A stretch of DNA of 64,000 bases from Leucoraja erinacea (Eukaryota), in the NCBI RefSeq assembly GCF_028641065.1, contig NC_073389.1, positions 11,470,001 to 11,534,000 of the forward strand, written 5' to 3'. Made by a program: the position numbers and the translations under genes. The notes under the pieces are model-generated. The model was not told the origin of the DNA. It was given only the letters and a program-made list of their open reading frames with translations, and did no database searches. Below are positions 2,431 through 22,603 of the stretch, piece by piece. Numbering within the stretch: the stretch's first letter is position 1; each line of letters opens with the position of its first letter.

Positions 2431-2584
2431 CTTTTAACATCCAGTGCTGATGTTTGTACCTGATTTTTCAGCCATGTTGCAGAGCTATGAAAGAAACCAT
2501 ATTTTCTTAAATGTCCTTCTTGCTGATTAATTAGTGAAGTTAATCCCAGCAACCAGGCATTCTTTAGTTTATCCAAAGCAGTAT
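2431..2584 (-). CDS. LTN1: LTN1 exon 14 (DTALDKLKNAWLLGLTSL...WLKNQVQTSALDVK); gene continues beyond the window start
   Basis: Manual translation matches the listerin KLKNxWL...WLKNQVQxSxLD segment; 154 nt; phase joins exon 13 across a 19.8-kb intron. Confidence 0.93.
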
Positions 2585-3049
2585 CTAAAGCAGAAAGAAA
2601 AATCCTAAATTAATACGCTTCAATCATGCAGTCATTCATACTTGTTTTGAGATTTGGGAACCTTTCTACGAAAATGATTGTTTATACAAATGACACGGCA
2701 AATGAATATCTAAGAATGAATTCAACAAAGCATGTTTTTCCATCTCAAATAAACATAAATATTAATATATATAATATATAAATCTATATGATATATAAAT
2801 AAACAAGTAATATATAAATAAGATAAATATAAACCTGTGAGCTTTCGTTTTCTGGAGATCCTACAATTTCAAATTTTTACTGTCTATTTGGTGTAACGAA
2901 ATAATGGACAATCATTTTATTCTATATTATTATAAACTTTGTTTCAGACTTAAGGTCCACACAAGAGACGGCATTACATAAAATATATTGCATATAAAAC
3001 ACCATAAAATACATAAAAAAGCTTAGTAAATTACTTATAAGAGCATCAT

Positions 3050-4610
3050 AAATTATATACAAAAACACAATACATGATTTAAAATCCAGAATAAAAAGAA
3101 AGGTCAGTGTCCTACAACGAGACAACTATACCAATGTCTCCACAACTGGGATTGGTAGCCTGTAGTGCTAAACCTTATGTTTGATAAGATCTTGATAATT
3201 ACATTTTCAGAGTCATTAATCCTGCAGATAAATTTATGCATATGATTTCTTAGGATGGCTTCTAAAGTACTGACTCCTGCAGCCACAAACAATTCATTAG
3301 CACTACACCATGTAGGTTTCCTTAGCAGTGTTCTTATGGCATAATTATAAGCCACCTTTAGTCTCTGTAAGGTACACAAAAATGCTGGAGAAACTCAGCA
3401 GGTGCAGCAGCATCTATGGAGCGAAGGAAATGGGCGACTTTTGGGGCCAAAACCCTTCTTCAGACTGAAACCCTTCTTCAGAATTCCTTTCAAAGGGTTT
3501 CGGCCCGAAACGTCGCCCATTCCCTTCGCTCCATAGATGCTGCTGCACCCGCTGAGTTTCTCCAGCATTTTTGTGTACCTTCGATCTTCCAGCATCTGCA
3601 GTTCCTTCTTGAACACCTTTAGTCTCTGTAAACCTCTCTTCACCTCTGCCTATCCTTAGCCCCACGTCCCCCTCCCTTTTCATCTGTGCATTAATTGCCT
3701 CATATTGTGTTTTGAATTGTATTCTGTCTTTACTTTGTGTACTAGTCATGTCTCTACTATTTATTTCATTCGCCTTACATGTTTTTCCTCTACCTGCTAA
3801 ATTTTTGTAAGGTGTCCTTGAGACTCTTGAAAGGCGCCCATGAATAAAATTTATTATTATTTATTATTAAACTTGTTTTTCCGTAGTTTGATCACATGTG
3901 TGCAGTATAGAGTGGTGTGCAATATGCTCCAAACAGAGACATCTTCACCACATCTGTACACGCACCAAATTAACGCAAGAGAATATTTGCCTGTACATAC
4001 AGTATACACCGTTGCCTATAAATATCCTCATCATCTGTCATTTGTCAGATTTACGCATCCCTCTTTGACTCAATTTAACAAACAACTTTCTATGATTAAC
4101 ACGATAAAAGGCTTTGGAAGCATTAATAAAGCACATAACAATTGATGAGTTTTTACCTCCATATTTGTTTACAATCTCCTTTAGGAGTGTGGAATTAACA
4201 ACTCATTTAATCTATCCAGCAGAATTCTTTCTAGGATTTTTGATAATATGCTGGCTAAAGCTATGGTCCTGTAATTATTTAGGTTGCCTAATTACCAGCT
4301 TTGTCCTTACTGACCGGCACTAGCAGAACAGACAACATTGAGTCTGGTAACAAGCCATGCATCATAAAGCCGGTAAAACAAATACCAAGCAGAGGAGCCA
4401 TCCTCATACTCGCATACTTAAGATGTTCAGCAGAAATGTGATCCAAGCCACTTGCTTTGTTGTTGGACAGCTTGTTCATGGCATGATACACCTCATGTGA
4501 CATAATCACCATTGAGTCATTACTCCCAATATTGTCCACCTTATGCAAATCACAGAATATAGTAGGCACGAATACAGAACATATCATATCAGTGTGCCCA
4601 TACACCATTA
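3050..4610 (-). mobile_element. Degenerate non-LTR retrotransposon ORF2 (RT) fragments, interrupted by other repeats
   Basis: NKASGLDHISAEHLKYA...LVPVSKDK (RT domain 0/1) at 4288-4608 and C-terminal VAYNYAIRTLL...LEAILRN at 3104-3370. Confidence 0.75.
3371..3613. mobile_element. Penelope-type inverted terminal-repeat insertion with an 18-bp target-site duplication
   Basis: Arms 3371-3460 and 3493-3580 are reverse complements; CACCTTTAGTCTCTGTAA at 3353-3370 and 3614-3631. Confidence 0.85.
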
Positions 4611-4689
4611 TATAAATATATACACATCAATAAATATGCAGATAAAATGCTAATAAATAGATCATGGTCTATTAGTGTTCAGAGATTTG

Positions 4690-5690
4690 TTTCAGTTGAG
4701 TTTAATAGCCAGATGGCTGTGGGGAAGCAGCTATTTCTGAACCTGGATGTTGCAGTCTTCAGGCTCCTGTACCTTCTACCTCAAGGTAGTGGGGAGATGA
4801 GTGTGTGGCCAGGGTGGTGTGGGGTCCTTGATGATGCTGCCAGCCTTTTTGAGGCAGCAACTGCGATAGATCCTCCCGATAGTAGGGAGGTCAGAGCCGA
4901 AGATGGACAGGGCAGTGTTTACTACTTTTTGTAGTCTTTTCCGCTCCTGGGCGCTCAAGTTGCCGAACCAAGCCACGATGCAACCGGTCAGCATGCACTC
5001 TACTGTGTACCTGTAGAAGTTAGAGAGAGTCCTCCTTGACATACGGACCGCAGATGTGCTTCAGTAATTGGATCAGTGTTCTCGGACCAGGAGAGATCTT
5101 CAGAAATATGCACACCCAGGAATTTGAAGCTCTTGATGCTCTCTACCATCGACCCGTTGATATAAACGGGACTGTGGGTCCCCATCCTACCCCTTCCAAA
5201 GTCCACAATCAATTCCATGGTTTTGCTGGTGTTGAGAGCCAGGTTATTGTGTTGGCACCATTTGGTCAGTCGGTCGATCTCACTTCTATACTCCGACTCG
5301 TCCCCATCAGTGATACGTCCCACAACAGTGGTGTCGTCAGCGAACGTGATGATGGAGTTCGCACTATGACCGGCTACGCAGTCATGAGTATAGAGCGAGT
5401 ACAGCAGGGGGCTGAGCACGCAGCCTTGAGGTGCTCCCGTGCTGATTGTTATCGAGGCTGACACATTTCCACCAATATGAACAGTCTGTGGTCTTTGAAT
5501 GAGGAAGTCGAGGATCCAATTGCAGAGGGATACGCAGAGACCCAGATCTGAGAGCTTGCTTGGAGGGGATGATTGTATTAAATGTAATCAATGAATAACA
5601 GCCTGAGTTTTTGTTCTCCAAGTGGTCCAGAGTGGAGTGGAGAGCCAGCAAGATCGCATCCACCGTTGATCTGTTGTGTCGGTATGATAG
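4690..5690 (-). mobile_element. Rex1/Babar-clade non-LTR retrotransposon RT fragment
   Basis: [22 protein letters not shown]...FADDTTVVG...[14 protein letters not shown]; frameshifted. Confidence 0.88.
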
Positions 5691-5984
5691 CTGTGGTAAA
5701 ACTGACCAACATCCAGTTATTATGGAAACAAATACCATTATTTCCAAATTCTTGTCCTCGTTAGAAACTATTCTCAGAAGTACAATCACTATTCTTTCGC
5801 TGTTGTGTCAAAATCCTGAAATCCACCCAACTAAAAGCATGATAGGAATAAACTGTACTACATAGGCTTCAGTGCTTTAAGAGACTAGTTCATCACTAGT
5901 CTCTCAAGGGCAATGTAGAGAAGTAATATATCCTTGCTTTGTCACCAACAAGCAGATCATTTATTTCACTGGAACCCAAACTTT

Positions 5985-6562
5985 TTCGGGCCATTTTTTG
6001 GCTCCATAAGCTCACCCCCCTTGCACCTTATCCTACCCGATAAATAGTCTTGTTCAGAATAGCGATTTGCACGACCCAGTAAGGAAGATAATAACACAAT
6101 AAAATTTAAAACAGTAACAATAAATTGCACATTTATTCAAAATCCAATCACAACTTTTAGTTTAAATTAATTTAACAACATTGATGAATTTGATCCAATG
6201 ATACCAGCTTTTCAAAGTCTAAGTTATTTAGCAAGTCTTAGAGGCCACATTTAGTAACTACTTCAGTGTTCAGTAAATTCTGAATGCGATGGATGGGCTT
6301 CATGAAATGATACCAGTTTTGCAAACTTCAAAAAGTTCCAAGAAATACTATCTAGCAAAACAGTCCACGCTCTTAGCGAGGTCAGTGGAACGCACGGCAG
6401 AACAACTGCCCCGTAATCATGTCAAGTGCATATTGCCACCTCTGTTGCCCATTGTCCTGCCCACCTCCAGCACCCCCCTGCCATGTTCGTATCTCTTAGC
6501 ACCCTCTAGGTAATCTCATAGCCCTCTACAGGGTGGAACCTCTCACTTTGGGAACCATTTAT
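5985..6562 (-). mobile_element. Degenerate hAT (Charlie-like) element remnant
   Basis: Eroded termini CACTGGAACCCAAACT / TTTGGGAACCATT and minus-strand LDFEKLVSLDQIHQ resembling a hAT transposase C-terminus. Confidence 0.45.
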
Positions 6563-8139
6563 TTATATGAACGTAAAAGGAAGTTTTAATCCCAATAAAC
6601 CTACTTTTTTTCCCGCCCTTGATAACTTGTATTGATAAGTTTTCCTTTTTATTGCAAATTTAATTTATAAATTCATTCCGGTTGTATTTGTTTACTATGA
6701 GCTTGTTCTACAAGCAGGATAACATTTCCTTACTATGTTACTAACAACTAAGTTTAGTAACAACTTAGTTGTAGCATATTGTTAGTTAGTTAGGGCATGC
6801 TGCAGATGGTGCTAACACAAGTACAAGTTCTAGAACAGTGATCAATGTTCAGCTGCTTCAGACCAAATGTGATGAGTTATGAGTGACAATGCTTAATCTG
6901 GAGAAGTACATATACATGCACTTAATTATTATTTTCTATACTTTTTTTTCCGATAGATCACTTCCCTGTTTTACTGGTTTAAAGCATTTACCAAAGTTTC
7001 CTCTTTCTGGTTGGAGACTAGTTCCATTCCAGTTCAAATGCAGCCCACCCTATGGGTTTCTCTCTATACTGGAAAACCTTTTCTTGTATCGATCCTTCTG
7101 TCATAAGCTTCTCCTGATCCATCTCCTTCAACGCCAACCTCAAGATATCACTTTTCAATTTAGCTTCAATATTTCTATTACCACGTGGACAAAAACACCG
7201 GATTTTCCTCTTTCTTTCAAAATTCCTCTAAAGAAATTCTCTTACTGTGACAATGGATTTGGTTCCGGGCCACAGAAGATGCTATTGATATCCTTAGCAG
7301 CATTACTACTGCATTTCTGTTGCACTATGTCTTGAAGCAGCTGTATCATTCCATCGTCTGCACTTTGGATATCTTCCTGACAATCCCTTTCCATGTCCTG
7401 CCATGTCTGGTGGCGAGGGTTGTGGGTGAAGATGGGATGGAGAGGGGTGAGGTGGGGGATAGGGAGGAGAGAAGAGTGGCAAGAGATTTCCCTCAAAGTG
7501 TTCCCCCACCCTCCTCCCCACAGATTATATGGGATTTGGGCAAGTCCAATATGTATAGTGTTGTAGGAGTCATAATTGTGATTTATACCCTCCAGCATAC
7601 ATCACAAAAAGACGTTGACTGAATTTTATCATTTATATCCCTGAAAACCTCAGAAATAAATTTCAAATCTGAATAAAACTACAGATTATCATAAAAATTC
7701 AAAGAATAATGAAAATATTGCATGCAGAGGGAAAATGTAACAAGTATTTCAGACATATCAATCTCCTACCACATAAATGAATGGAAATATCTTTTTCAAT
7801 TAGTGCTAAATTAATTATGGCCAACTATGGCAAATACAGAACACGTAGACCAGCGATTTCAGTATGATTAAGACAGTATTTATTTTAGTGTCCTATTTGT
7901 TTTGTCTGTTACATTTCAATAACAGCAACAGCAGAGAATATCTCTTTAAAGTTCACTGCCTGTTGCTTTATTGAATAATTCAATGAAATTTTACTTCAAC
8001 AATCTGTCAGTATTAAGATGCAATTTGTCTGCAGCAAAACCTGACAAGGCAACGGCACAGTAGTTTTAATGGGTTGCAGTTCCAAAGAATAACCAAGAGG
8101 CATGGTTTATTGTGCATGACACTAATTCAATAGGCTGTG

Positions 8140-8290
8140 ACTTACGTGGTCTGCATGATTGACTGTACTGCCATTCACATTATAGTGTAATTGCTTGCAG
8201 ACCATTTCAATCAACATTCAAGTTGAGATTTTCTCCCGGTACGCAACCAAAGGAAGTCAGACAAATGTATTTAAATATAATTGACTGTAT
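8140..8290 (+). promoter_or_regulatory. Putative proximal promoter of the apelin-like gene
   Basis: TATA-like TATTTAAATATAA at ~8268-8280, GGAAGT (ETS-like) at ~8252, TACGTG (HRE core) at 8143-8148. Short motifs only. Confidence 0.3.
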
Positions 8291-8339
8291 TTACGTTCTG
8301 TATTAGTAATTGAATATATCCCATGCATTCATCAAAATA

Positions 8340-8403
8340 ATGAATGTTAAGTATATCATTGTTTTTCTAACCATTTTGATAACAATGTCATCAATATGCA
8401 AAG
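8340..8403 (+). CDS. Apelin-like prepropeptide, coding exon 1 (signal peptide MNVKYIIVFLTILITMSSICK-G), nested antisense in LTN1 intron 13
   Basis: ATG at 8340, basic N-terminus then a hydrophobic core, ends in a perfect phase-1 donor AAAG|GTAAGT (GT 8404-8405). The MNVK start resembles teleost preproapelin as recalled. Confidence 0.85.
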
Positions 8404-8820
8404 GTAAGTGCTGCATTTTATTACATTAAATGCAATTATGTTACAGTATGCCAAGTACAAATTGTAATTCAAACAAAGATAAACAGCATTTTAAACTATG
8501 TGCTGAAATCATTTTACTGCGTCACAAAGTAACAGCAGTTTTCAATGCATTGCTTCCGTGGCTAGCTCGCACTGGCAGCAATTGATAACGATAGAAAGTT
8601 AAAGGAATACCTACATCATTTTAACTGTATTTTGTCTTCTTTCAAGATGTAATGTATGTAGTTAGTCTTTGGAAGTTAATGGCAATATATCCAAATTTAT
8701 GAAATAACCTTTAGTTATTGCTACCAATTTGCCAAGTGATTGGGACAAGCTGTGTTCTCATGGTTATAGAAGTCACAGTATGCAATCAAATCTTGATTGA
8801 TTTATGTATTCCTTTGTTAG

Positions 8821-8981
8821 GACTCCAGCAGTTTACTCGTTGGGTACAAATAAAGCCTGGGGAAGATGCTGGTCAATCAGTAAACCGTGTCATTCGATGT
8901 TCAGGATGCAAACAGTCAGCTACAAGGGAAAATAAACGCCCCCGACCTAAACTCTCTCGCAAAGGTCCACTGCCTTTCTAA
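8821..8981 (+). CDS. Apelin-like prepropeptide, coding exon 2 (G-LQQFTRWVQIKPGEDAGQSVNRVIRCSGCKQSATRENKRPRPKLSRKGPLPF*)
   Basis: Acceptor TTCCTTTGTTAG| (AG 8819-8820), phase 1 in frame with exon 1. The C-terminal PRPKLSRKGPLPF matches apelin-13 (Q/P-RPRLSHKGPMPF) after a KR dibasic site. TAA at 8979-8981 is followed by donor CAG|GTAATA (GT 8988-8989). Spliced CDS is 225 nt = 74 aa. Symbol withheld because orthology versus paralogy to APLN is unresolved. Confidence 0.88.
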
Positions 8982-9252
8982 GATCAGGTAATAAAACCTT
9001 GAACAAGTGCCTTCTTTGGTTATTCTTCAGACTACAATACTAAAATGTTGTTGATGAATAGGGATAGAGTATTGAAATAAAAATTGTCAAAAATGAAAAG
9101 GAATTGAGAGCAAAAAAAAAGGGGTTTTCAGAATCAAAACTTTAATGTTACTGTATAAAAGGTGTTTACTGAGGGACAAAGGTGCTAAAAAATTGATGGG
9201 TAGCAATGGAAAATAAAAATATTCTATTTAAGTAAGGGTGTTTATTTCTTAG

Positions 9253-9420
9253 ATCAAGATGGAGCAAGCCGAGGCCAGACTTGGAAGCACTCTCCACAAT
9301 TTGTATTAAAGACACTTCAATGCTAAGATTATATTTAATTCATTTTTTGACAGAACTGAAAATGCTTTAATAAAACTAGTTTGCAGACCAATAAAAATAA
9401 AAGCTAAAAGTGAGATAGAC
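9253..9420 (+). other. Candidate non-coding last exon (3' UTR) of the apelin-like gene
   Basis: Acceptor GTTTATTTCTTAG| at 9251-9252, then AATAAA at 9369, 9390 and 9396. An alternative strong acceptor exists at 11223-11224. Confidence 0.45.
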
Positions 9421-9614
9421 AAAACATTTCCGACTTATTTAATCACGTATCCTCTCCGCACGGATATCAATGCAAAGATAATAAGAAATGAGCAGAATTT
9501 AAGAAAACCCAAAGTTTAACTTAGCCAGCTATAATTATTCTAGAAAAAATGTAACAATGTACATTACCTATTATAACACAGTAAATCCATAGCCAGAGTA
9601 ATATGGGGCAATGT

Positions 9615-10650
9615 GTGTAGGAAAGAACAGCAGATGCTGGTTTAAATCGAAGATAGACACAAAATGCTGGAGTAACTCAGCGGGACAGGCAGCATCTCTG
9701 GAGGGAAGGAATGGATGACGTTTCAGGTCAAGACTCTTCTTCAGATTGATGTCAGGGGAGTTGGGGGCGGTAGAGAGATAAAATGTAGTCGGAGACAGTA
9801 AGACTGGTCAGAGAACTGGGAAGGGGGAGGGGATGAAGAAAGAATGAAAGCAAGGACTACATGAAGTTAGAGATGTCAATGCTCATACCGCTGGGGTGTA
9901 CCCAAGCAAAATATGAGGTGCTGTTCTTCCAATTTGCACTGGGCCTCAATCTGACAATGGGGAGGCCGAGGACAGAAAGGTCAATGTGGGAATGGGAGGG
10001 GAAGTTAAAGTGTTGAACAACCGGGAAATCAGGTAGGTTTAGGCGGTGTGAGCACAGGTGTTCAGCGAAATGATCGGCGAGTCTGCGCTTGGTCTCATCG
10101 ATATATATGAGTCTACACCTGGAACAGCGGATACAGTAGATGAGATTGGAGGAAGTACAAGTGAACCTCTGCCTCACCCGAAAAGACTGTTGGGATCCTT
10201 GGACGGAGTCAAGGGGGGAGGTATAGCGACAAGTGTTGCATCTCCTGCGGTTGCAGGGGATAGTACCTGGGGAGGAGGTGGTTTGGATGTGAAGGGACGA
10301 GTTGACCAGGAAGTTGTGGAGGGAACGGTCTCTGCGGAAAGCGGAAAGGGGGTGGAGATGGGAAGATGTGGCGAGGAGTGGGATCCCGTTGGAGGTGGCG
10401 AAAATGTCAGAGGACTATGTGCTGTGTGCGATGGCTGGTGGGGTGGAAGGTGAGGACTAGGGGGGCTCTGTCCTTGTTACGAATGGAGAGGGGGGGGGGG
10501 GGAAGCAGATTGGAGCTGCGGGAGATCAAGGACCAGCTAGTGAGAGCCTCATCTACAATGGAAGAGGAGAACCTCCATTCCCTAAATGAGGACATCGCCG
10601 ATGACCTGGTATGGAACACCTCATCTTGGGCCCAGATGTGGGGCAATACC
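9615..10650 (-). mobile_element. Penelope-like element 3' part (GIY-YIG endonuclease plus terminal repeat)
   Basis: RQRFTCTSSNLIYCIRCSRCRLIYIDETKRRLADHFAEHL and PLVLTFHPT motifs. Confidence 0.88.
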
Positions 10651-13600
10651 ATATACAAGATAAATATTTATTTAACCTTTAATCTATGCCATCTGAGATG
10701 GATAGGAACAGATAAACCATTTCACAACAGGGAGGATTCAACAAGGCGTTCTCATGAGAGCCTTGTTAGAGTAGTTGAAAACAAGGTCCCCAGAATGCCC
10801 TCTTGACCAAACTGACAATCTTCAATTTACGATAAGAAGATTATGAAATCCAGTATTGCGTAAATACATTTATTTTTTACTACAAATATGATTTATTTGG
10901 TAAAATTATGAAACTTATATAAAGATAAAAATATAACGGCTACTCATTTTCAAATAATAAGGTAAATTATAAGGTTGTGCTTGCAAAACCGTTAGGCAGT
11001 GCACATGCGGGCACACAGTATGACAATAATTTGCCTTTTACCATCAGAACCATAGCAACCTCTCGCAGTCATTCTTACTTAAAAAGGAATTTGGATTAGG
11101 AATACAGGGCCAGAATTGTTCTGGCTGTGCCTGCTGTCCGATTTGCCACAGTAATATAAAAACAAAGCCACTTCTATCAATTCAATATAATTTATCTTCT
11201 GTTGTTTTTTTCCTTTCCCCACAGCACACGACTGCACCCAGTACTTATTTTCTGCAAAGATCATGTCCAGTGCCATCTACGAGCAGAGAAAGCAAGGACA
11301 AACATCCGTTTAGTATCTCCATCAGGAGTACAATCTGTATTTCTGTTAAATGCTGAAGATATTTGTTTCAGTTGTTTAAAATATTGCCACAGAAAGATCC
11401 AAAAATTTCCAGATGTGAATCTGCCACTTCAGAGAATATAATCGAAAGGTCAACAGAAAATATAAAATGTGCTGTGAGACATTCTGTTCACAACAACCAT
11501 AATTTCATTTTCTGATGCATGCTCCAAAGAGATCAATTCTATCTGTAAACAAGAGATCTTGTATCGGCTGTTTCTCGTAACATAGAGTACATTATGAATA
11601 ATTAAAATGGTTAAGAGACTGCTTTAAAAATAGTAATCAACTGACTTTTAAAAATACCAATAATCGTTCAACAAAATTCATCATTAAAAGTTATTGCGTA
11701 AATGAAATATTCCCAATTAGAGGATCTACTTGAATTATTTACGGTTTCTTAAACGCTGGATAATTGCGAGCAGATTAGTATTTCAATATTATCAAAGATT
11801 CAGATCTCATTATATTAGCCATTTATACTTAACATTTTCAAGAATGTGATTTAAAAAGATGCAACTTCTTGTTCAGTCTACACTGTAGCCACTCCCCAAT
11901 GCAACATACAGTAGAATGCACCAAAACGTATCAACCATTTTTAAAATTCTGTCGCACACAATTCATGAATAAATTGATAATGTAAGTAAACGGTAGAAAT
12001 ATAATTGAGAACATTCAGAAATGAATATATTCAAATAGTTAAATTGGTTAAAAATATTTCAAATTTTAGCATAAATATGCAATTTCTCTATTTTAAAAGT
12101 GGGTTTGTTGATTGCTTCTTTTTTCAAGCACTTCTGTAATGCCACAGGTTTAGAACTTAGAATATCATAAATTCACACAATTAATACTGTGCCCTTTGGG
12201 CTAAATAGATCTTAAGATTCCAGAATAATTGGTAGGATGGGGAGTAGTGTGGACTAGTGCAAGTGGGTTCTTGATGGTCAACTTGGACTCATTGAGCTAA
12301 AAGGCCAAACCTCCTTATTATGACATTATATTGAAAATTATTTTTTTCGCTGATCGAAAAAATAATCAGAGGTCAAAATTGTTTTGCAAAATGGGCCACG
12401 GAAAATCAGAACTAGATTTAATTATTTATTTGCTTCTTTTTGTTACTGGAACAACCTGGTTAGATCTAAAAGATTTAGAACATTTTAACTTGGCACCTGA
12501 TCAAACTCTATTTTTTGTAGTTAGTAATAGCCAATCATTGATGGAGTATGCTTTTTATACATTTGCAGTACAGAAATAGCCATCTTGTGTTTTTCCTGAT
12601 GCATCCCTTCCCTGTTTTTTTCAGAATGATAATATTTTCTCACAAGGTAATCTGTCACATCACCCTCTTCAATTGCAAGTTTTTATTTGCTGTCTAGATT
12701 GGACACTCAAGGCTCTATTAATTACATCGAGATCTGAATAAAACTTCCTTCAATACCAAATAAAACAATAACCATCTAGTTGTGACGAAGTTCTGCATCA
12801 AAAAAATGTTTCCTCGACGGAATTGTTAATTTGCGGCTTTGGATGTTTTAAATAGAGAGCTGAGAGTTCAAAGGTACTGAAAATGTAATGATTTGTAAAT
12901 GCGGTAGAGAAGACATGCTCAAAGTTCACTTTGTATTGATTATCTATTTAGCTGTGATAATTCTCTCAACCCACTGCTGTCAAAACGTTATCATTGGATT
13001 TGCTGTTGTTGTATATCACAAAATCTCTATCTTGTTATGGCAGTAAAACAATGCTTTGAAGTCTCCTCTTAAAATCTCTGGATAACTATCCCATTCATAC
13101 TTTTCCAGTTTGTTAATCACAGTCTCCAGAGATTTTCCTCCAATCCCAGTTCAACAAATCTGTGCACATTTTCTGCATGACCGCAGACATAACTTTTTTC
13201 CCTCATCATGACATGTGCATTCTCACCTGTTCTGGCTTTTCCTGCCATAATTTGCAAATAATCTGATATTTAGTACAGATGTAGAGCTTTATATTTCCCT
13301 CTGTCATCACAATAGTTAGGGCCTTTGGTCGAAGCTGTTCTCGTGTAAGTAACTTGTTTCACTCCATCAACTTCTAGCAGATATAGGATTAAGGTATGGG
13401 AAACACTGTAGACTGTGGCAACATGTCTTTATAACATTGCTATAATTAAAGCAACAAATGGCACCCGCTACTATACACATCTTGCGTACTATCCTTATTC
13501 AATCATCTCAAGTTCCACACACTATGGCATTACAAACAACAGCATCCTCTTCCAATACAGTATCTCAACTGCTCATGACTCTTAGTTGCAAATTGAGTCC

Positions 13601-13659
13601 ATTAGAACATTTTTTCTGGAATTCCCTACCTAAACTCATCTCTCCATTTTCCTGGAGAA

Positions 13660-14965
13660 ACAAGGAACTACAGATACTGATTTACAAAAAATGGCACAAT
13701 GTGTTAAAGTACCTCAGTGGGTCAGGCAGCATCTCTGGGAAGCATAGATAGGGTCGGGATCCAACTGTGGACTGATTGTGGTGGAAGGGAAAGAAAGCTG
13801 GACGAAAGGATGGCCAGGACAAAGCCTGACAAGTAATGGGTGGTTACAGGCGAGGGGGGGTTGATCGGCAGATGGCTAGACAGAGGTAAAAAGGCACAAA
13901 CCCTCCGACTTCCACATTTATCTGGACTACACCTCCTCCCGCCAGCCTCTTCAAAGATGTAATTCCCTACTCACTATACTTCAATTTCTGCTGTACCTGC
14001 TTACAAGATGAGGCTTTCCATTCTAGGATCAAGATGTCCTCTATTTGTTTTAGTAATTGTGGTTCCTCACTGCTACCATATGTGTATCCCTCACCCGCTT
14101 CTTGTCCGTGCCCAGTAGTTCTGCTCATGCTCCCCCTCCTCCAGGTGGAACATGGATAGACATCCCATGATCCTCACCTGGCACTTCAATCGTGGCTGCA
14201 TCCAACACACCATTCTCCAACACATCATGTTGGGATCACCTCCAACATGATCCAAACACCAGTCACATCTTCCAATCCCCTTTCCGCCTTCCGCAGAGAC
14301 CAACTCCGCGGCTCACTCATCCCTTCCCACCCAAACCAACCCTTTCCCACATTATTTCTCCAGCAACCGCAAGATATTCAACACCTCGCCCTGTACCTCC
14401 TGATATCCACCCAGCATTTGGTCCACATGAGACAGAGGTTTATATTCATCTACTGCATCTGGTGTTTCTGATGTGGCCTCCACTGCACCTTCGGATGCAT
14501 GTGACAAATAAAATTGACTTTGACTTTGCATCGACAAGACCAAAAAATCGGTGACGTTTCATTCTACACTTGTGTTCGGTCTGCCAAGTTGCTTACCATT
14601 CCAACTCTCCATTCCATTCTGACCTTTCTGTCCTGGGCCTCTTCCATTCCCAGAGTAAGGCCACACGCAAGCAATTTTATATGTCAACCTGCAACACCCC
14701 TCCCCCACCCCGTGCCCACTCATTTCTTCCCTCTATCTATATTCCTTACTCTGGCTTCACAATTATCAACTATTCAATCCATTTGTCTCATACCTTTTGA
14801 CCAACCATCTGCCTGTCAACCTGTCACTTGCCAGGCTTTGCCCTGCACCTCCTCTCTACCAGCTTTCTGCCCCCCACCACAATCAGTCTAAATAAGGGTC
14901 CCGACCCGAAACATCATGGTCTCCAGAGATGCTGTCTGATCCACTGAGTTACTCCAGCACTTTGT
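13660..14965 (+). mobile_element. Degenerate Penelope-like element flanked by inverted terminal repeats
   Basis: Eroded RQRF..IYCIWC GIY-YIG motif at 14430-14480; terminal repeat copies at 13660-13790 and 14880-14965 in opposite orientation. Confidence 0.75.
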
Positions 14966-16246
14966 AAATTTTCTTTCTCCATTTTACCTTTATTCTTTAA
15001 TTTCACCAAACTATTAGTTAACCATTCCAATATCCTTTGTTGACTGTGTTAATTCTTGACTGTCTACATTTTGGTGAAGCTTCATGAGATATTTTCATTA
15101 CAATTACACCAATGTCTGTCCTACTGGTTAGTAATAGCCTTATTCAAGGAATTCTATTAACAATGGTTTTAAATTTCTCCCGAATCACCCTCTCTACAGG
15201 TTGGTAGGTTAATTGGCCACTATAAATTATCTCAATTGTGTAAATGAACGATAGAATCAAGAGTAGTGAATAAAATGGGATTAGTGTAGGACTCGTCTAA
15301 GTAGGTGCTTGATGGTCAGCTTGGTCTTATTGAACCAAAAGGCATGTCTCCGTGCTACATCACTGCATGACTCTCTGACAGTTAATCTCAGCTCTTTCTT
15401 TTCCTAGACTTATGTGTTTCCATTAACAAATTGTAGGAGCAATTTATTTAAAGCTAACCTCAAAAGCTAACTTTTGATTAACGTATAAAAATCTTTCATA
15501 TTAAATCTAATGCAATTTTACATATTAAAGTTATTAAAAAATATTTTTTCTCTGGACACTGGCAGACGCTAAGATCCCCAGCAAAATGTTACAAAATCAC
15601 AATTTTGATATCACACATCAGACCTGTCATGGGATTTTTCTATTTCCTATTCATCCAAAGCAGGTTCTCAGCCAAGAGGTTGGGAAGAAAAAGTAACTAT
15701 GAAATTGTTGCTTATGTAAATTTTCATATTTTAATTAAAACATGCTAATTAAAACAATTAAATATTTTTGACCAATTCAAAGCCAATTTAATCATTTTTA
15801 AGGATCTCTCACTATTGAATAATTTTAACAATATTCCATCTGAGACCCACTATACCTCCTAGATTTAGAAGGGCAGCTCCATCAAACCATTGCATCCAGC
15901 ACAATTAAAAACCACAGCTGGCGATCCGGATTCAAATTAATTCCACCTTAATTTATCTATAAACTCTTTAAAGGGATGTTTATGCCCACACGTGGCTGTG
16001 CCATCTTTTTATCTTGTCTTCCTCATCTGTAATGATATCCCTGCTTGATAAATGGGTATACAAAAAACATTTTTTATATTCAGTTTCTATCTAAAATTGT
16101 GTTTAGTAGTTTTAAGTTTGTAGTTTTCTGTATCTACCTTTTGGGAAGTTATGTAGTGAAGTGCTGGCTGTTTATTCTTCATATTCTGCTAATTCACTAA
16201 AATTGAGGATTATATCAAACTAATCACTTAAATGGTTGAGATGTTT

Positions 16247-16516
16247 AAGAAAGAACAGCAGATGCTGGAAAAACTGAAAGTAGACAAAAATGCTGGAGAA
16301 ACTCAGCAGGTGAGGCAGCATCTATGGAGAAAAGGAGTAGGTGACCTTCAGAATGATGTCGGGGGGGGGGGAAGAAAGGAAGAGGTGGAGACAGTAGGCT
16401 ATGTGGGAGACCTGGGAAGGGGGAGGATCTGAAGAAGGGTCTCAACACAAAATATTGCCTACTTTTCTGCATAGATGCTGCCTCGCCCGCTGAGTTTCTC
16501 CAGGATTTTTTGTCTG
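16247..16516. mobile_element. Penelope-type inverted terminal-repeat insertion with a ~20-bp direct flank
   Basis: CTTAAATGGTTGA(G/A)ATGTTT at 16227-16246 and 16517-16536; inverted arms inside. Confidence 0.8.
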
Positions 16517-16598
16517 CTTAAATGGTTGAAATGTTTTCTGTAACGATGCATCAATGGAATAAAAATCAATGCTTCACTTACAAACTGTATTGAAAATA

Positions 16599-17156
16599 CA
16601 GTATATCTTAGTTATAATGGACCTAAGGGGGAGAGGAGGAGGGAAATGGTTTCTGCCAATTGTCCATTATAACAGAGTATGGTATTATCACTTTGTCTGC
16701 TCCACACATCGAAAGTAGAGTATGCCAGTGACTCCAGGGGAGGAGGAGGGTGGCGGTGGAAGGAGTGGGGGGAGGATGGAAGATGTTGAATGGACCGAAC
16801 GACAGGAGGAGGAGTAGTAGGAGGAGGCGGTTGAGCAGGAAGGGAACAAAGCGACGGGCCAACAGGAAGCAACAGCAGCAGGTGGGAGGGGAGGGAGCTC
16901 CAAGGTGATCGAGCGTGTCTGGTCGGTGGCAGCAGCCTGAAGAAAACGCTCTTCCCAGGGGTTACAACACGAGCCATGTCAACTATGCAATAGGTGAAGA
17001 AGAGCTCGCTGGTGCACCTTGCGAGAGATGGGTGGCGTCAAAAGCCAAGGCTCTAAGCGGCCTGGGAGACGGTTCAAGCTGGCTGTGGCATCGGCAGGTC
17101 CATCTGATATATCCAAAATCCATTATGAAGTGGTCCATTAAAACACGGGTTTACTG
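16599..17156. mobile_element. Tc1/mariner (Tigger/pogo-like) MITE
   Basis: TA|CAGT...ACTG|TA ends with imperfect TIRs (GTTATAATGGACC / GGTCCATTAAAAC). Confidence 0.65.
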
Positions 17157-17379
17157 TATTTACAATATGTACCATTAAAAATAATCCCACGTTGTGGGAA
17201 TTAAATTAGTAAATGGACAAATAAATACTACTACTGAAAAATGGAAAACCCTGAACACCCTTTATTGACAACACCTACATTGATCAAGGCATTTTCAATA
17301 AATATTTAAAAATCTTACTTCAACAAATTCCATTGCTTTGGCGAGTTGGATTACAGAAAGTCCCAAGGCTTTTTATACC

Positions 17380-18700
17380 TACATTAAAACAGGAGGACAA
17401 TGAAGGCGAAGATAGGAGGTCGCTCAAGGATAAAGGAGGAAATTTGTCATTGGAGTCTGGGAATGGAGGCGAGATACTAAACATGTACTTTACATCTGTT
17501 TTCACCAAGGAGAGGGTCATGGAGGACAACGAGATCGGTGTGGAGTATATTAATATGCAAATTCAGTTTGAGATTACAAAGGAGGAGGAAATGTTGCTCT
17601 TGAAGAGCATTAGGTGGATAATTCACCAGGACCTAATGGGATATACCCCAAGTTGTCTTGATGAAGATCTTTGCGTCTTCTCTAGCCACAGGTGAGGTCC
17701 TGGATGACTGGAGAGTAGCTTATGTTATTCCTTTGGGAAGTAGAGAGAATCCAGGGAATTATGGATGGGTGAGTCTCACATCAGTGATAGGGAAGCTTTG
17801 GATGAGGATTCTTCGAGATAGGATTTGGAAGAGAATTAGTTAATTAGGGTCATTTAGTATGGCTTTGTAGAGGCAGGTCGTGCTTTAGGCTGAATATATA
17901 TAAAATATGAAAAAATGACTGACATAAATATAAATGGGTTGTTTAATAAGTTGCAAATGACACCAAGATTTGTTGGGCTCACGGCTTGAGAAGAACGCTG
18001 TCAAATTAAATGATGGGATGTAGATCAACTACAGAAATGGGCGGAGAAATGGCAGATGGAGTTTAATCCAAGCAAGTGTGAGATGTTGCAATCTGGGAGG
18101 TCGAATGTGAGGGGAAATATACAATTAATGGAAAGACCCTTAGCAGCACAGATGCACAGAGGGATCTTGAGCTCCAACTACATGACTCACTGAAAGTAGC
18201 AACACAAGTAGATAGAGTGGCAAAGGTGGATATGGTGTGCTTGCCTTTATAGGTCGGAGCATTATTAAAGTCAGGAACTCATGCTAAAGCTTTATAGGAC
18301 TTTGTTTAGGCCACATTTGGAGTATTATGTACAGTTGTGGTTGTCCCATTACAAGAAGGATGTAGAGGCTTCAGAGGCTGCAGTGGAAGTTTACTTGAAT
18401 GATGCCTGGATTCGGGGTCAGGGTAGAATGCCGGAACTCTTTTCCCAGGATTGAAATATCAAATAGTGGAAGGCATAGCTTTAAGGTGAGAGGTGCAGAG
18501 TTTGAAATGGATGTGCGGGGCAAGTTTAATTTTACACAGAGGTGGTGAGTGCGTGGAACGTGCTGCCAGGAATGGTGGTTGATGCAGATATGAGTGTTGT
18601 ATTTAAGAGACTTTTATATAGGCATATAGAAATGCAGGGAATGGAGGGAATATGGATTATGTGCAGACATACAAGAGTTGTGCTTGGCATCATGTTCATA
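17380..18700 (+). mobile_element. Degenerate CR1-type LINE ORF2
   Basis: ILNMYFTSVFTKE, SLATGEVLDDWRVAYVIPL...PGNY..VSLTSVIGKL, downstream RT and tail remnants. Confidence 0.85.
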
Positions 18701-18869
18701 AAATAAATCTTTAAAATGCAGAGATTCAACATTAGTAACATATGAAGCATGGCCTTCGGTCTGTGAATTTAGCTAGCAAATGACTCACATGGACGGAAGA
18801 CCACTATCCACCTCTTCTTCTTCAGCATTAATCCAGCGTACGTCAATCTCCTTTTGAAACTGAACACCA

Positions 18870-19790
18870 TCACACGTATCTTCACTGTGTCTCTAGTTCT
18901 TGCTCTCGTTCCTCCCCCCCCAGACGCAACAAGGACAGAGTTCCCTGGTCCTCACCTTTCACCCCACCAACCTCTGCATCCAACATCGACATTTCCGTCA
19001 TCTCCTACGTGATCCCACCACTAATCACATCTTCCCATCTCCACCTGTTTCTACTTTCCTCAGAGACTGCTCCCTCTACAACTCCCTGCTTGACTCATTC
19101 CTTCCCACCTAAACCACCCCCACTCCAGGTACTTTCTCCTGCAACCGCAGGAGATGCAACACCTGTCCTTATACCTCCTGCCTCAACTACATCCAGGAAC
19201 CCCGACTGACCTTTCAGGTGAGACAGAGGTTCACATGTACCTCTTCTAACATCATCTACTACATCCGGTGTTTCCAATGTGGGCTTCTGTACATCGACGA
19301 GACCAAATGTAGACTCGGTGACTGTTTCGCTGCACACTTGCCCTTGGTCTGTCGAGGCCTATGGGATCTCCAGGTTGCTAACCATTTCAACTCCCCTTCC
19401 CATATTGATCTTTCTGTTCTGGGTGTCCTCCATTGCTAGAGTGAGGCCTATTAGAGGCCTATTAGAGGAACAACACCTCATATTTCCTTTGGGAAATATG
19501 AGGTCTTACGTTAAATTTTCTAATTTTAAGCAACTTCTGCTAACACCCTCCTCCCCGTTCCGCTTCCTCCACCCTAATCGTTTAACCAGTTCCACAGTTT
19601 GCCATAATGTATCTCTTTTGAGATCACACCTTCCCTTGCCAATGACTGGCCCACCAAAGCTCCACCCTGCTAGAGGTCACCTGCTGCCCACCCTGATTTG
19701 TCCTGGTCATCTCCCCCCTTCCCCCACTTACAGTCTGAGGAACGGTCCCGACCCAAAATGTCACTTATTACTCCAGCACTTTCTGTCTAC
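18870..19790 (+). mobile_element. Penelope-like element 3' part (GIY-YIG plus terminal repeat)
   Basis: RQRFTCTSSNIIYYIRCFQCGLLYIDETKCRLGDCFAAHL. Confidence 0.85.
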
Positions 19791-21464
19791 TATCACATCG
19801 TAGATAGAAGTTCATACATCAGGATTTCCCACTTGCAGTGTGCATTAGCATTTAATTGCTTGAAGATGTAACGCCATTCCAAGACTTGAACTAGTGTGGT
19901 CAGAGAGAGGGAGCTGGAGCCAGGGTGAAGTAGGAGACTACTGTTGTGAAGTTGTAGATGTTAGATTGATATAATGCTAGTATTAACTTGGAAACAAGAG
20001 AAAAACAAATTTTAAATAGTGGATGGGTAAATGGAAGAATTGTGCCACATTGAAATGGACAGGAGAGCCAAGAAAATTGTCAGTTAGCTTTGAAGGATAG
20101 TCAAGAATAGTGCTAATCTATTTCTAAGGCACAAAGGATAAGGATAGCTACCAAAAAATGCAAGCTCAGCCTGCTACATATCACCATGCTGTTATTAGTC
20201 TCTTTAAAGGGCTGTTTTTTGAGGCTTCTCAATTTAGTAGATCACATCACTAATATTCAGCTGCTCATGTTATTAAATTTCAAATTTAAACAGACCTAAT
20301 TTAAGTACAGGACGTGTTAAATGTCAGATGCCAGTACCACCATTGAAAAATCCATCAAGCAGCATTAGCAGGACAAAGGCAGATGGACATGCCAAAACAT
20401 GTATTACCAATTCATATCCACAGCAACCTCGCCCACAGAAAACGGTGGGCATAAATGAGGTACATAGAATAGAACTTCTATATTCCATACCTGGTTATGA
20501 ATAGTCACTTGATCCCTGCTATACCAGACGTAGAAGCTTTACAATTGGTTCAGTCCCTAGACTGAAGCAATGTGGGGAAAAACAGTCATAAACGGAAACT
20601 TCTGCTCATTTGTTAAATTACCCAGATAGCAAGGATTACTTCCAACGTCGAATGATGCTCAGGAAATACACTCACAAATGAAGAAAGAAAATTTGGGTGA
20701 GATAACCTGTGGAATTATGCGTATCAACAGCTCGCTCCTTTTGGAAAACTAGTAAGATAATGGCAAACAATCTTTTTGTGTCATAGGGAAACTGAATATA
20801 GTGATGCTCCAATTTGAATACTGATGATCATAGAGAAAATCTAAGCATACATTTCACAATTGTATGAATGCAACTAAGCAATAAGATACTAATCAAACCT
20901 GATTCAAATAACCATTTTCCAATCCTTGATCACAATGTTTTGCAATGAGTGGTCATTCAACCAAAAATAGTATTAACAACAGTTTCAGGCAATACAAATA
21001 TACAAAGAATCTATGCAATAAATAGCTGGGGGAAAGTATTTTCAAAAAATTTCTAAAATGAAAACGAACAACTTACATATGAAGTTGTCAAATTTGGTGA
21101 ATACAGCTATGGTTTCTTGCAATGCAAGTCATGAACTAATCGCATAATCAAAGATTTGGAAGCTCCTAATACACACATACATTAACATATTATCCAAAAT
21201 AAATGCAAGAAATACTGTAGAAGTTACATCATCTTTTGACTGAACACGGAAAATAAAAAATGATTTCTGAATTGATCTTTTAAAATAAGAGCGAAATTAC
21301 GAGGGCTCTAGTCATCTTTGTACATTAATTTTCTGTGAAACACTTTTTGGTGGGTATGGAGTCTAATTTTACCTATTATGTTTATCTGCTTGGCAAAATT
21401 CCTTCCAATTTAGCATAATGAGGAAGAATGGATAAATGAATGAACGAACTAACTAATTAACTTC

Positions 21465-21935
21465 CGGAAGGCAGGCCTGACTCGCCCGCCGCGGGCTGAT
21501 GCTGGAAGAGGACCGGCCCGCAGCGGACCGACGATGGAGGAGGACCCGGCCTGTGAATCGCCCCCAAGCCACTGGCGCTGACAGGAGCAGAGCAAACTAA
21601 GAGTGAGGAGGGACTGAGAGCCATGTGGGCCAGCCAGAGCGAGGTGAACTGCCAAGAGAAATGGGGGATGGGGGGGGGGGATCCAGTGTGAGGCCACCGA
21701 GACCAATGGGGTGGAACCAGCGTGGGGGGAGGGGGGTGTGAGAGGAATGGCGAGACCCGGCGAGAACGAAGGGGGAACGCCTGCCGTCCCGTGCAGCAGC
21801 AAGCAGTAGATTTGTTCTGTTCAGTACTTTTGTAACTTTATCAACACATGGTGACACGTGTACTACCTAGGTTGTATGCAAAACAAAGCATTTCATTGTA
21901 TCTAGGTACATGTGACAATAATGCATCTTTCAATC
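21465..21935 (+). mobile_element. GC-rich non-autonomous retroposon with a Rex1-like 3' tail
   Basis: Tail TGTATGCAAAACAAAGCATTTCATTGTATCTAGGTACATGTGACAATAA resembles tails at ~30540 and ~61460-61500 (minus). Confidence 0.5.
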
Positions 21936-22357
21936 ATAGAAAAACAGGCTCCTCATCCCATTAAATCCATCCTGTCCATCAGCTACAATTTACACTCATC
22001 CAACGTTAATGCCATTATTTTATTCTCCCCACATTCTCATAAAATTCCCCGCAGAACCTACCACTTAATTGCCTATATTAGGGACAATTCTGAGTGGCCA
22101 AATACCCTACCTGATATTTTTGGAAATATGGGAGGAAACCACAGCACGCTGAGGGATGATGTACATTCTACATACAGCCAGCACTGGAAGTCAGGTTTGA
22201 TCCTGGGTACCTGGCACTGTAAGGCATCAACTCTATAAGATGTAAACTAAATGATAAATTAGATAGGGAGCTTCCCCAGAAAATTACCCTGTGCTGTGCA
22301 ATCTTTTCTTAAAAGGGTAATTGTTTGAAGATCCATAGAACAATGCTTATGCTTTAC

Positions 22358-22603
22358 CTGAGAGATGAGTCTTCTCCTGACTTTGGGCACAGAGCTGGAA
22401 AATTGTGAAAAGAAGATCCTCAGCTGAAGACATCTGCAAACATCCCTTGATGGAACAGAAAAAGTTGGATGCCAAATCACAAATGAAAGAGAGCGAAGGC
22501 TCCATAACTCCAGTTTTAGTTAGGTCCTCAGATAGATCCTTCGAAAGTGCACGGTGGAGTCGGTCAATTATTCTTTCTATATACATTTCAGCAATCATGA
22601 ATT
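22358..22603 (-). CDS. LTN1: LTN1 exon 13 ([17 protein letters not shown]...QEKTHLS)
   Basis: ORF 22347-22613; 246 nt; phase 1 at both ends. Confidence 0.94.

What the first reader, a model, noticed from the sequence alone, without database searches (positions are those of the whole stretch)
2585..22357. Non-canonical locus: candidate second apelin gene (ohnologue) lost in mammals
Seen: LTN1 intron 13 is 19,773 bp while the other twelve LTN1 introns in the window are about 0.2-3 kb, and this one hosts the peptide gene. Established: mammalian APLN lies near OCRL/XPNPEP2/SASH3 on X, not in LTN1, and I know of no apelin in the human LTN1-RWDD2B-USP16 region. Inference: either a whole-genome-duplication paralogue retained in cartilaginous fish or a relocated APLN. 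The enlarged intron may hold its enhancers.
Basis: inference. Interest (0 to 1): 0.8.

Follow-up and report, generated by a model that had tools for sequence, protein, structure and literature searches.

The report
Second apelin gene hidden inside LTN1
Besides its ordinary apelin gene, this skate carries a second, spliced apelin-type hormone gene lying backwards inside a long intron of LTN1, likely a leftover of the early vertebrate genome doublings, which would give the apelin receptor a third natural ligand.

Summary
LTN1 intron 13 (2585-22357, minus strand) is 19,773 bp, the longest of 29; the other twelve in the window are 180-3,036 bp. On the plus strand inside it lies a three-exon gene for a 74-residue apelin-type precursor: signal-like exon, peptide exon ending PRPKLSRKGPLPF, and a non-coding last exon. 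Both splice joints are seen in public contigs, and the coding part is conserved between species. It is not a relocated APLN: the ordinary apelin sits on contig C12 between OCRL and XPNPEP2/SASH3, and apela on C1. The two apelins share intron positions but only 32% identity. C12 and C13 share members of 5 of 9 families tested, 3 as full four-chromosome sets, so origin in the vertebrate genome doublings is likely (about 0.75). It is not proven: no orthologue was found outside close relatives, flanking genes are not collinear, and a tree cannot exclude a later duplication. The peptide departs at three near-invariant positions; receptor binding has only weak modelled support. The enhancer idea is untested, and much of the extra intron is repeats. 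Ten literature searches found no description.

The parts
22358..22603 (-). LTN1 exon 13 (host gene, upstream exon)
2585..22357 (-). LTN1 intron 13, 19,773 bp, phase 1, GT..AG; longest of 29 introns
2431..2584 (-). LTN1 exon 14 (host gene, downstream exon)
5701..8339 (+). Repeat-free 5' flank of the nested gene; likely promoter and proximal regulatory DNA (inferred)
   Evidence: 0% masked against a 0.77-Mb library; 7900-8420 single copy in the genome
8041..8284 (+). 244-bp block with no listed difference to a related species, ending at a TATA-like stretch at about 8270
   Evidence: promoter role inferred
8340..8403 (+). Nested apelin-2, coding part of exon 1: 21 codons plus one base, hydrophobic signal-peptide-like, begins MNVK like the C12 apelin; donor GTAAGT
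   Evidence: signal peptide judged by hydropathy, no predictor run
8404..8820 (+). Nested gene intron 1, 417 nt, phase 1
   Evidence: skipped in contigs of X1 and X2
8821..8987 (+). Nested apelin-2 exon 2: pro-region with a CxxC pair, Lys-Arg at 8934-8939, C-terminal 13-mer PRPKLSRKGPLPF at 8940-8978, stop 8979-8981, donor 6 nt after the stop
8988..11224 (+). Nested gene intron 2, 2,237 nt, contains SINE/LINE-type repeats at about 9570-10640
11225..11990 (+). Nested gene exon 3, non-coding 3' UTR; start shown, end inferred from AATAAA at 11968 (ATTAAA at 11601 and 11683)
   Evidence: start; end: inference
12001..22357 (.). 3' remainder of the intron, at least 48% repeats; 5.4 kb unmasked and unexplained
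   Evidence: no Pfam family in 7 ORFs tested there, no Rfam family
5000..5587 (-). Reverse-transcriptase (LINE) fragment in the repeat-rich 5' end of the interval
   Evidence: Pfam RVT_1, E 2.4e-13

Best explanation
This is a spliced three-exon second apelin gene lying antisense inside LTN1 intron 13, separate from the canonical apelin on C12; it likely arose in the vertebrate whole-genome duplications and is predicted to make a secreted peptide that would activate the skate's apelin receptor. Shown: exon structure, splicing, an open 74-codon frame conserved between species, a separate canonical apelin and apela, paralogy of C12 and C13. Inferred: it is transcribed from its own promoter in the repeat-free 5' flank; the 21-22-residue leader routes it to secretion; the 52-residue pro-peptide acts as a long form or is cut at Lys-Arg to a 13-14-mer; the C-terminus (basic 'address' plus GP-x-PF 'message') engages the one APLNR-type receptor found (C25) and, as for other apelin receptors, Gi. 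The intron is long because it holds the 3.7-kb gene, 2.6 kb of repeat-free flank, and about 13 kb of repeat-rich DNA that accumulated around it.
For: Splice joints in contigs of three runs from two studies and two organism codes. Against DNA run X8 (a relative, 57 differences and 7 indels over 1,921 bases): 1 of 40 listed substitutions falls in 225 coding bases versus 39 in 1,274 non-coding, one-sided Fisher p 0.011, no coding indel. Same architecture as the C12 apelin (phase-1 intron after the leader; donor 5-6 nt after the stop) and as human and chicken APLN (three exons, last non-coding; PMC6315173 passage), so a DNA-level duplication, not a retrocopy. Old split: 22 of 69 residues identical to the C12 apelin, which is 60 of 75 identical to Narcine apelin and 35 of 75 to a mammal-type apelin; 7 of 9 shared C-terminal codons differ synonymously; no flanking DNA likeness below E 0.025. 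Skate C12, Narcine and chimaera apelins form a 99/99 clade without it. SH3BGR, VGLL and MAP7 each hit C5, C12, C13, C26; SLY and BCOR families hit C12 and C13, their C12 members 0.26 and 0.7 Mb from the canonical apelin; INPP5B is on C26. C5+C13+C26 are 8.7% of the assembly. Modelled complex with the C25 receptor: weak support, 0.48 versus best control 0.03, runs agree in at least 66% of contacts, partner pLDDT at least 53; the mark was reached by 51 of 78 solved and 2 of 108 mismatched pairs, but at 0.60 or under by only 5 of 78 solved and all 4 passing mismatches, and solved apelin-receptor complexes exist, so the pass may be from memory.
Against: No orthologue outside close relatives: none among 43 hits in 1.84 billion representatives, 1 and 68 candidates of two word searches, or a metagenome scan. 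The AU test does not reject grouping it with batoid apelins (p 0.083) or all chondrichthyan apelins (p 0.29), and its branch is long. No local collinearity: the nearest C13 partners found lie 12.8-42 Mb from the window; a RWDD2B query found no paralogue; the DACH/Ski family pairs C12 with C6, not C13, so the true chance level exceeds 8.7%; families were picked from recalled human paralogy, not at random; HMG14_17 was blank. The peptide changes three positions that are R in 40, H in 40 and M in 41 of 41 canonical apelins, and loses most of the basic cluster before the 13-mer; RPRL is reported as critical for binding (PMC6731456 passages). The runs are only guessed to be RNA, one is flagged 'probably DNA', depths are about 5, and 16 differences of X8 were not listed. 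Tissue, level and strand of expression are open.
Confidence: 0.68

Rival explanations
1. A real second apelin, but a later, cartilaginous-fish- or batoid-specific segmental copy that was inserted into LTN1 intron 13 and diverged fast at first; then nothing was lost in mammals.
For: Nesting in an unrelated single-copy gene implies a move at some time; no collinear flanks; only close relatives hold it; AU p 0.083 and 0.29; no orthologue in protein collections.
Against: It sits on a chromosome paralogous to C12; synonymous sites near saturation and flanks unalignable; present-day coding change is slow; chondrichthyan apelins are poorly annotated: 2 full-length ones found against listerins of 12 named chondrichthyan species, and the skate's own canonical apelin was not returned, so absence is weak.
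Confidence: 0.2
2. An old paralogue whose peptide no longer serves the apelin receptor as a full agonist: it acts as a biased or partial ligand, or on a related receptor such as the GPR25-like gene on C24.
For: Three near-invariant positions changed, a new Arg-Lys pair inside the 13-mer, a CxxC pair in the pro-region, no furin-type R-x-x-R site; the Leu-Pro-Phe end fits the Xaa-Pro-Yaa end of GPR25 ligands (bioRxiv 10.64898/2026.03.04.709523 passages); apelin weakly activates fish GPR25 (bioRxiv 10.1101/2025.06.10.658772 passages); only one APLNR-type receptor was found for three ligands.
Against: 9 of the last 12 residues are kept, including Leu5, whose loss costs most binding (PMC6731456 passage); norleucine at Met11 keeps high affinity (PMC13197934 passage); R to K and H to R keep or add charge; weak modelled support for the C25 receptor (which cannot tell family members apart).
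Confidence: 0.2
3. A relocated APLN orthologue, the only apelin of the genome.
For: Passes the Pfam Apelin cut-off.
Against: A full-length canonical apelin (54.9 bits) lies on C12 between OCRL and XPNPEP2/SASH3-type genes and groups with named Narcine and chimaera apelins at 99/99.
Confidence: 0.01
4. A decaying pseudogene or a chance open frame with leaky antisense transcription.
For: Low contig depth; runs only guessed to be RNA; an odd upstream joint in X3.
Against: Intact frame, leader, two exact GT..AG joints, coding conservation p 0.011; single copy.
Confidence: 0.04

Closest known systems
APLN (apelin), Pfam PF15360; here the C12 gene, Narcine P0033, Callorhinchus P0034
   Same: 74-75-residue precursor starting MNVK, phase-1 intron after the leader, donor just after the stop, non-coding third exon, active peptide at the free C-terminus, 9 of the last 12 residues identical.
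   Different: Different chromosome, nested antisense in LTN1; 32% identity to the C12 gene; RPKL for RPRL, Arg for His7, Leu for Met11; short basic site (Lys-Arg only); CxxC in the pro-region.
APELA / Elabela / Toddler, Pfam PF22050
   Same: Second short secreted ligand of the same receptor; ends in a Pro/Phe pair; two cysteines.
   Different: Apela is a separate gene on C1; the nested gene did not match the Toddler family and matches Apelin instead.
APLNR2 / Aplnrl (receptor ohnologue lost in eutherians; PMC6315173, PMC8015242, passages read)
   Same: A duplicate of the same signalling system kept in non-mammals; the one receptor found here is of this general type by recalled likeness.
   Different: It is the receptor; those passages describe a single apln ligand gene (zebrafish) and no ligand paralogue.
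crh2 and spexin 2 (PMC9353778, PMC7044129; only the abstract openings in a search listing were seen)
   Same: Peptide-hormone paralogues, crh2 ascribed to 2R, kept in cartilaginous fish or other non-mammals.
   Different: Other families; their orthologues are known across several lineages, which is not yet so here.

Membership tests
Apelin family (paralogue) | Match to Pfam Apelin above the curated cut-off | tested here: met
   28.6 bits, cut-off 27, E 2e-6, profile positions 27-55 only
Apelin family (paralogue) | About 75-residue precursor with N-terminal leader and active peptide at a free C-terminal Pro-Phe | tested here: met
   74 residues, hydropathy peak 3.5 in exon 1, ends GPLPF-stop; no signal-peptide predictor was available
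Apelin family (paralogue) | Three exons, intron after the leader, last exon non-coding | tested here: met
   reference architecture from PMC6315173 passage
Apelin family (paralogue) | Activates an apelin receptor | not testable with these tools
   only a weak modelled complex, 0.48 versus 0.03, possibly from memory of solved complexes
APLN orthologue | Position beside OCRL, XPNPEP2, SASH3 | tested here: not met
   that position is held by the C12 gene; the nested gene lies in LTN1 beside RWDD2B, USP16, CCT8
APLN orthologue | C-terminal RPRLSHKGPMPF | tested here: not met
   three positions differ from residues held by 40, 40 and 41 of 41 apelins
APELA / Toddler | Match to Pfam Toddler | tested here: not met
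   genome search hit C1 only above cut-off; no Toddler hit for the peptide exon
2R ohnologue of APLN | The two genes lie on chromosomes paralogous by whole-genome duplication | tested here: met
   5 of 9 families tested have members on both C12 and C13, 3 as C5/C12/C13/C26 sets; OCRL/INPP5B gave C12+C26, DACH/Ski C12+C6, two were blank
2R ohnologue of APLN | DNA-level duplicate with shared intron positions | tested here: met
   the C12 donor after the stop is read from sequence, not from RNA
2R ohnologue of APLN | Duplication older than the split of cartilaginous and bony fishes | tested here: inconclusive
   free tree places it outside chondrichthyan apelins (99/99), AU p 0.083 and 0.29 do not reject inside or sister; 77 columns, long branch, no outgroup
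2R ohnologue of APLN | Collinear paralogous neighbours or orthologues in other lineages | tested here: inconclusive
   nearest C13 partner 12.8 Mb away; no orthologue in collections that annotate chondrichthyan apelins poorly; other vertebrate genomes are not searchable here
CXCL17-type GPR25 ligands | Four exons, eight cysteines in cartilaginous fish, C-terminal Xaa-Pro-Yaa | tested here: not met
   three exons and two cysteines in the pro-peptide against passages of bioRxiv 10.64898/2026.03.04.709523; only the last three residues fit

The most novel reading that the evidence does not exclude
Apelin was already nested in this LTN1 intron before the vertebrate genome doublings; our APLN was freed when the LTN1 copy around it on the X-type chromosome was lost, while cartilaginous fishes (and perhaps gar, coelacanth or lungfish) keep a second apelin in the ancestral position whose altered pharmacophore makes it a naturally biased or receptor-selective third ligand of the apelinergic system.
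Probability: 0.15. Interest if true: 0.82.

Novelty: new member of a known kind. Interest (0 to 1): 0.62.

Why it matters
The apelin receptor is a cardiovascular drug target, and the passages read describe two ligand genes, apelin and apela. A third, constrained ligand gene changes the history of the system: ligand as well as receptor would have been doubled early and then lost unevenly. Its C-terminus is a natural triple variant at positions otherwise near-invariant across 41 apelins, which can be synthesised and tested at once for potency, bias and protease resistance. It also shows a short peptide gene missing from protein collections, and gives one defined intron in which to look for it in every vertebrate genome.

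Tried and rejected
No listed holder was on record as RNA: no evidence either way by itself. ESM Atlas gave only hits under 0.8 (zf-MYND clusters), uninformative. PDB search with the peptide exon gave only chance hits, E 0.64 and 1.6. Metagenome scan: 557 pattern matches, none confirmed. Two weak Apelin-profile hits on C23 and C8 (E 5.3, 6.4) do not end in an apelin C-terminus when read; no apelin was seen on C5 or C26. No LTN1 remnant in C12 20.33-20.73 Mb (best E 0.83), as expected after so long and so no test of ancestral nesting. HMG14_17 and a RWDD2B exon were blank as paralogy markers. No Rfam family in the window. The database protein P0002 is the same locus read through intron 1 from an unnamed contig, not a true precursor. 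Earlier scan notes: nothing by place, words or sequence; one unrelated camel APELA note. A retrocopy origin was rejected because both introns are kept.
Full report
1. Observation. The window is G000:C13:11,470,001-11,534,000. Its large LTN1 exon is 98% identical to Amblyraja radiata listerin, so the organism is a skate. Mapping that protein gives 30 exons on the minus strand; chaining GT..AG boundaries gives 1,748 of 1,766 identical residues over the first 29. Intron 13 is 22357-2585, 19,773 bp; introns 1-12 are 180-3,036 bp and all 28 others 180-6,039 bp. The flanking exons are contiguous on human listerin. Neighbours are an RWD-domain gene in the window, ubiquitin-hydrolase and TCP-1 exons to the right, and a BTB-BACK gene to the left; the names RWDD2B, USP16, CCT8 and KLHL15 are recalled from sequence likeness.

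2. The nested gene. A six-frame motif scan found one apelin-type end, at 8940-8978 on the plus strand. It scores 28.6 bits on Pfam Apelin, cut-off 27. The best of 10 upstream candidates for a leader exon is 8340-8403, with a hydrophobic core and a consensus phase-1 donor. Of 24 listed runs I laid four. Contigs of X1 and X2 skip 8404-8820 exactly; X1, X2 and X3 leave the genome at 8987 and continue with the sequence at 11225, which follows a pyrimidine tract and AG. The tool only guesses that these runs are RNA, flags X2 as probably DNA, and depths are about 5; but two exact GT..AG skips, an unspliced DNA run (X8) and a single genomic copy are hard to explain except as mRNA. The product is 74 residues. 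Against X8, a relative with 57 differences and 7 indels over 1,921 bases, 1 of the 40 listed substitutions lies in 225 coding bases (Thr to Ala, also in X2 and X3) and 39 in 1,274 non-coding bases, one-sided p 0.011; 16 further rows were not shown, so this assumes they are non-coding. A 244-bp block before a TATA-like stretch has no listed difference.

3. It is a second apelin. The Pfam profile finds two genes over the cut-off among 21 candidates scored: this one and a full-length match on C12 at 20.53 Mb ending RPRLSHKGPMPF. The C12 gene has a leader exon 11.3 kb upstream that also begins MNVK, with a phase-1 donor, and a donor 5 nt after its stop. It lies between the OCRL family hit at 20.34 Mb and a peptidase M24 gene at 20.73 Mb with a hydrophobic tail, and an SLY-family gene at 20.80 Mb (the names XPNPEP2 and SASH3 are recalled). 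Apela is on C1.

4. Origin. Shared intron positions mean a DNA-level duplication. The split is old: 22 of 69 residues identical to the C12 apelin, which shares 60 of 75 with Narcine apelin and 35 of 75 with a mammal-type apelin (one gappy pairwise alignment to a teleost apelin gave 30 of 61, against 20 of 68 in the multiple alignment); 7 of 9 shared C-terminal codons differ synonymously; unique flanks do not align. In a 15-row tree the skate C12, Narcine and chimaera apelins form a 99/99 clade without it, but AU tests do not reject placing it with the batoids (p 0.083) or as sister to the three (p 0.29); the branch is long, there is no outgroup, and the C12 row carried one extra residue. I tested nine families picked from recalled human paralogy. 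SH3BGR, VGLL and MAP7 each hit C5, C12, C13 and C26; SLY and BCOR hit C12 and C13; OCRL/INPP5B gave C12 and C26; DACH/Ski gave C12 and C6 among eight loci, none on C13; two were blank. Fourfold sets are the mark of the two vertebrate duplications, the second of which preceded the split of bony and cartilaginous fish (PMC7269912, passages). C5, C13 and C26 make up 8.7% of the assembly, more with C6, so a random insertion would seldom land here. Against this, the C13 partners lie 12.8-42 Mb from the window, and nesting in a single-copy gene needs either a move or ancestral nesting with loss of the host on C12; no LTN1 remnant was seen there. I put the ohnologue origin at about 0.75.

5. Distribution. 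Only close relatives are shown to hold it: four organism codes in four studies share words, of which I laid runs of three. No protein of this type other than the locus itself appears in two word searches (1 and 68 candidates), among 43 hits in 1.84 billion representatives, or in metagenomes. This is weak: the same collection returned listerins of 12 named chondrichthyan species but only two full-length chondrichthyan apelins, and not the skate's canonical one; orthologues over 50% identical could also hide behind P0002. 'Lost in mammals' was not tested on a genome.

6. How it likely works. Shown: structure, splicing, constraint. Inferred from apelin biology: secretion through the leader, then action as a long form or after a cut at Lys-Arg (8934-8939). 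Proline follows that site, as in 30 of 41 apelins and as noted for non-mammals, where long forms can be the more potent (PMC6315173, passages). Among P0033-P0075, 41 of 43 rows end in Pro-Phe (P0051 and P0071 dropped); the nested peptide keeps 9 of the last 12 residues and changes Arg4 to Lys, His7 to Arg and Met11 to Leu, held by 40, 40 and 41 of 41. RPRL is described as the address and HKGPMPF as the message, with Leu5 the costliest loss (PMC6731456, passages); norleucine at 11 keeps affinity (PMC13197934, passages). The changes are thus mostly conservative. It lacks a furin-type R-x-x-R site, gains an internal Arg-Lys and a CxxC pair; their effects are unknown. One APLNR-type receptor was found, on C25 (best PDB match human apelin receptor, E 1e-106 against 1e-65 for AT1); the next genomic hits are 39-40% identical, with 112 of 1,003 candidates scored. 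The modelled complex of its residues 15-335 with the last 36 residues gave weak support: 0.48 against a best control of 0.03, contacts agreeing in at least 66%, partner pLDDT at least 53; such a low pass was reached by 5 of 78 solved complexes and all 4 passing mismatches, and may reflect solved apelin-receptor structures.

7. The long intron. Against a 0.77-Mb library of this genome, at least 42% of intron 13 is repeats (shuffled control 0%), against 25% over exons 1-13; 2585-5700 is 71% and 12001-22357 48% masked, while 5701-8339 is unmasked. Gene plus clean flank explain 6.3 kb. Still, 11.5 kb stay unmasked against at most 2.0 kb in introns 1-12, and 5.4 kb of that lie 3' of the gene, unexplained: old repeats or regulatory DNA. 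The enhancer idea is neither shown nor excluded.

8. Literature. Ten searches of the held library, including apelin with LTN1, apelin-like with paralog, and apln2 or second apelin, listed no paper on a second apelin gene. I read passages only of PMC6315173, PMC13197934, PMC6731456, PMC8015242 (single zebrafish apln; receptor ohnologue lost in eutherians), PMC7269912, PMC5126056 and two bioRxiv preprints; for PMC9353778 and PMC7044129 only the listed abstract openings. No supplements were read, bioRxiv supplements are closed, and subscription journals are missing; shark-genome gene tables or an automatic 'apelin-like' annotation could already list it.

9. Verdict. A real, apparently undescribed second apelin gene nested in LTN1; a new member of a known family, likely an ohnologue and likely an apelin-receptor ligand (joint 0.68). 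Interest 0.62.

Noticed in passing
G000:C25:26,332,737-26,333,828 (L067:1150-2244): Only one apelin-receptor-type gene was found; next hits are 39-40% identical (AT1-like on C14, GPR25-like on C24, names recalled). A second APLNR, present in many non-mammals, may be missing in this skate; 112 of 1,003 candidates were scored.
   Followed up: partly
window 8819 and G000:C13 about 11,397,125 (L041): The X3 contig enters exon 2 from a 22-base SINE-type sequence that matches exactly 72.9 kb left of the window, downstream of the BTB-kelch gene and just before a GT, with one base of difference at the joint: a possible long read-through or leaderless isoform, or a chimeric contig.
   Followed up: partly
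P0035 (unnamed): A divergent 74-residue apelin precursor ending HRGPMPF, 44% identical to the skate C12 apelin and 34% to the nested one; lineage unknown, could be another paralogue.
   Followed up: partly
G000:C12:20.34 Mb (L033): OCRL lies on the same strand as the canonical apelin; in human they are recalled to be on opposite strands, suggesting a local inversion. About 190 kb on each side of the apelin showed no obvious other coding gene.
   Followed up: no
G000:C12:20,532,520-20,544,044: The skate's canonical apelin (75 residues, 11.3-kb first intron) was not returned by the protein searches, so it may be unannotated too.
   Followed up: partly
L042:2-661 and L041:1946-2365: A KLHL15-like gene (name recalled; human Xp22) lies about 45 kb beyond the LTN1 3' end, joining human Xp and 21q content; a WD40 fragment resembling a processed pseudogene lies between its exons.
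   Followed up: no
G000, family searches: Only two SLY-family loci (no SASH1-type) and no RWDD2A-type paralogue were found; counts are lower bounds.
   Followed up: no
window 3369-3581: Inverted pair of SINE-type arms, 89 nt, 94% complementary, 35 nt apart, inside LTN1 intron 13.
   Followed up: no
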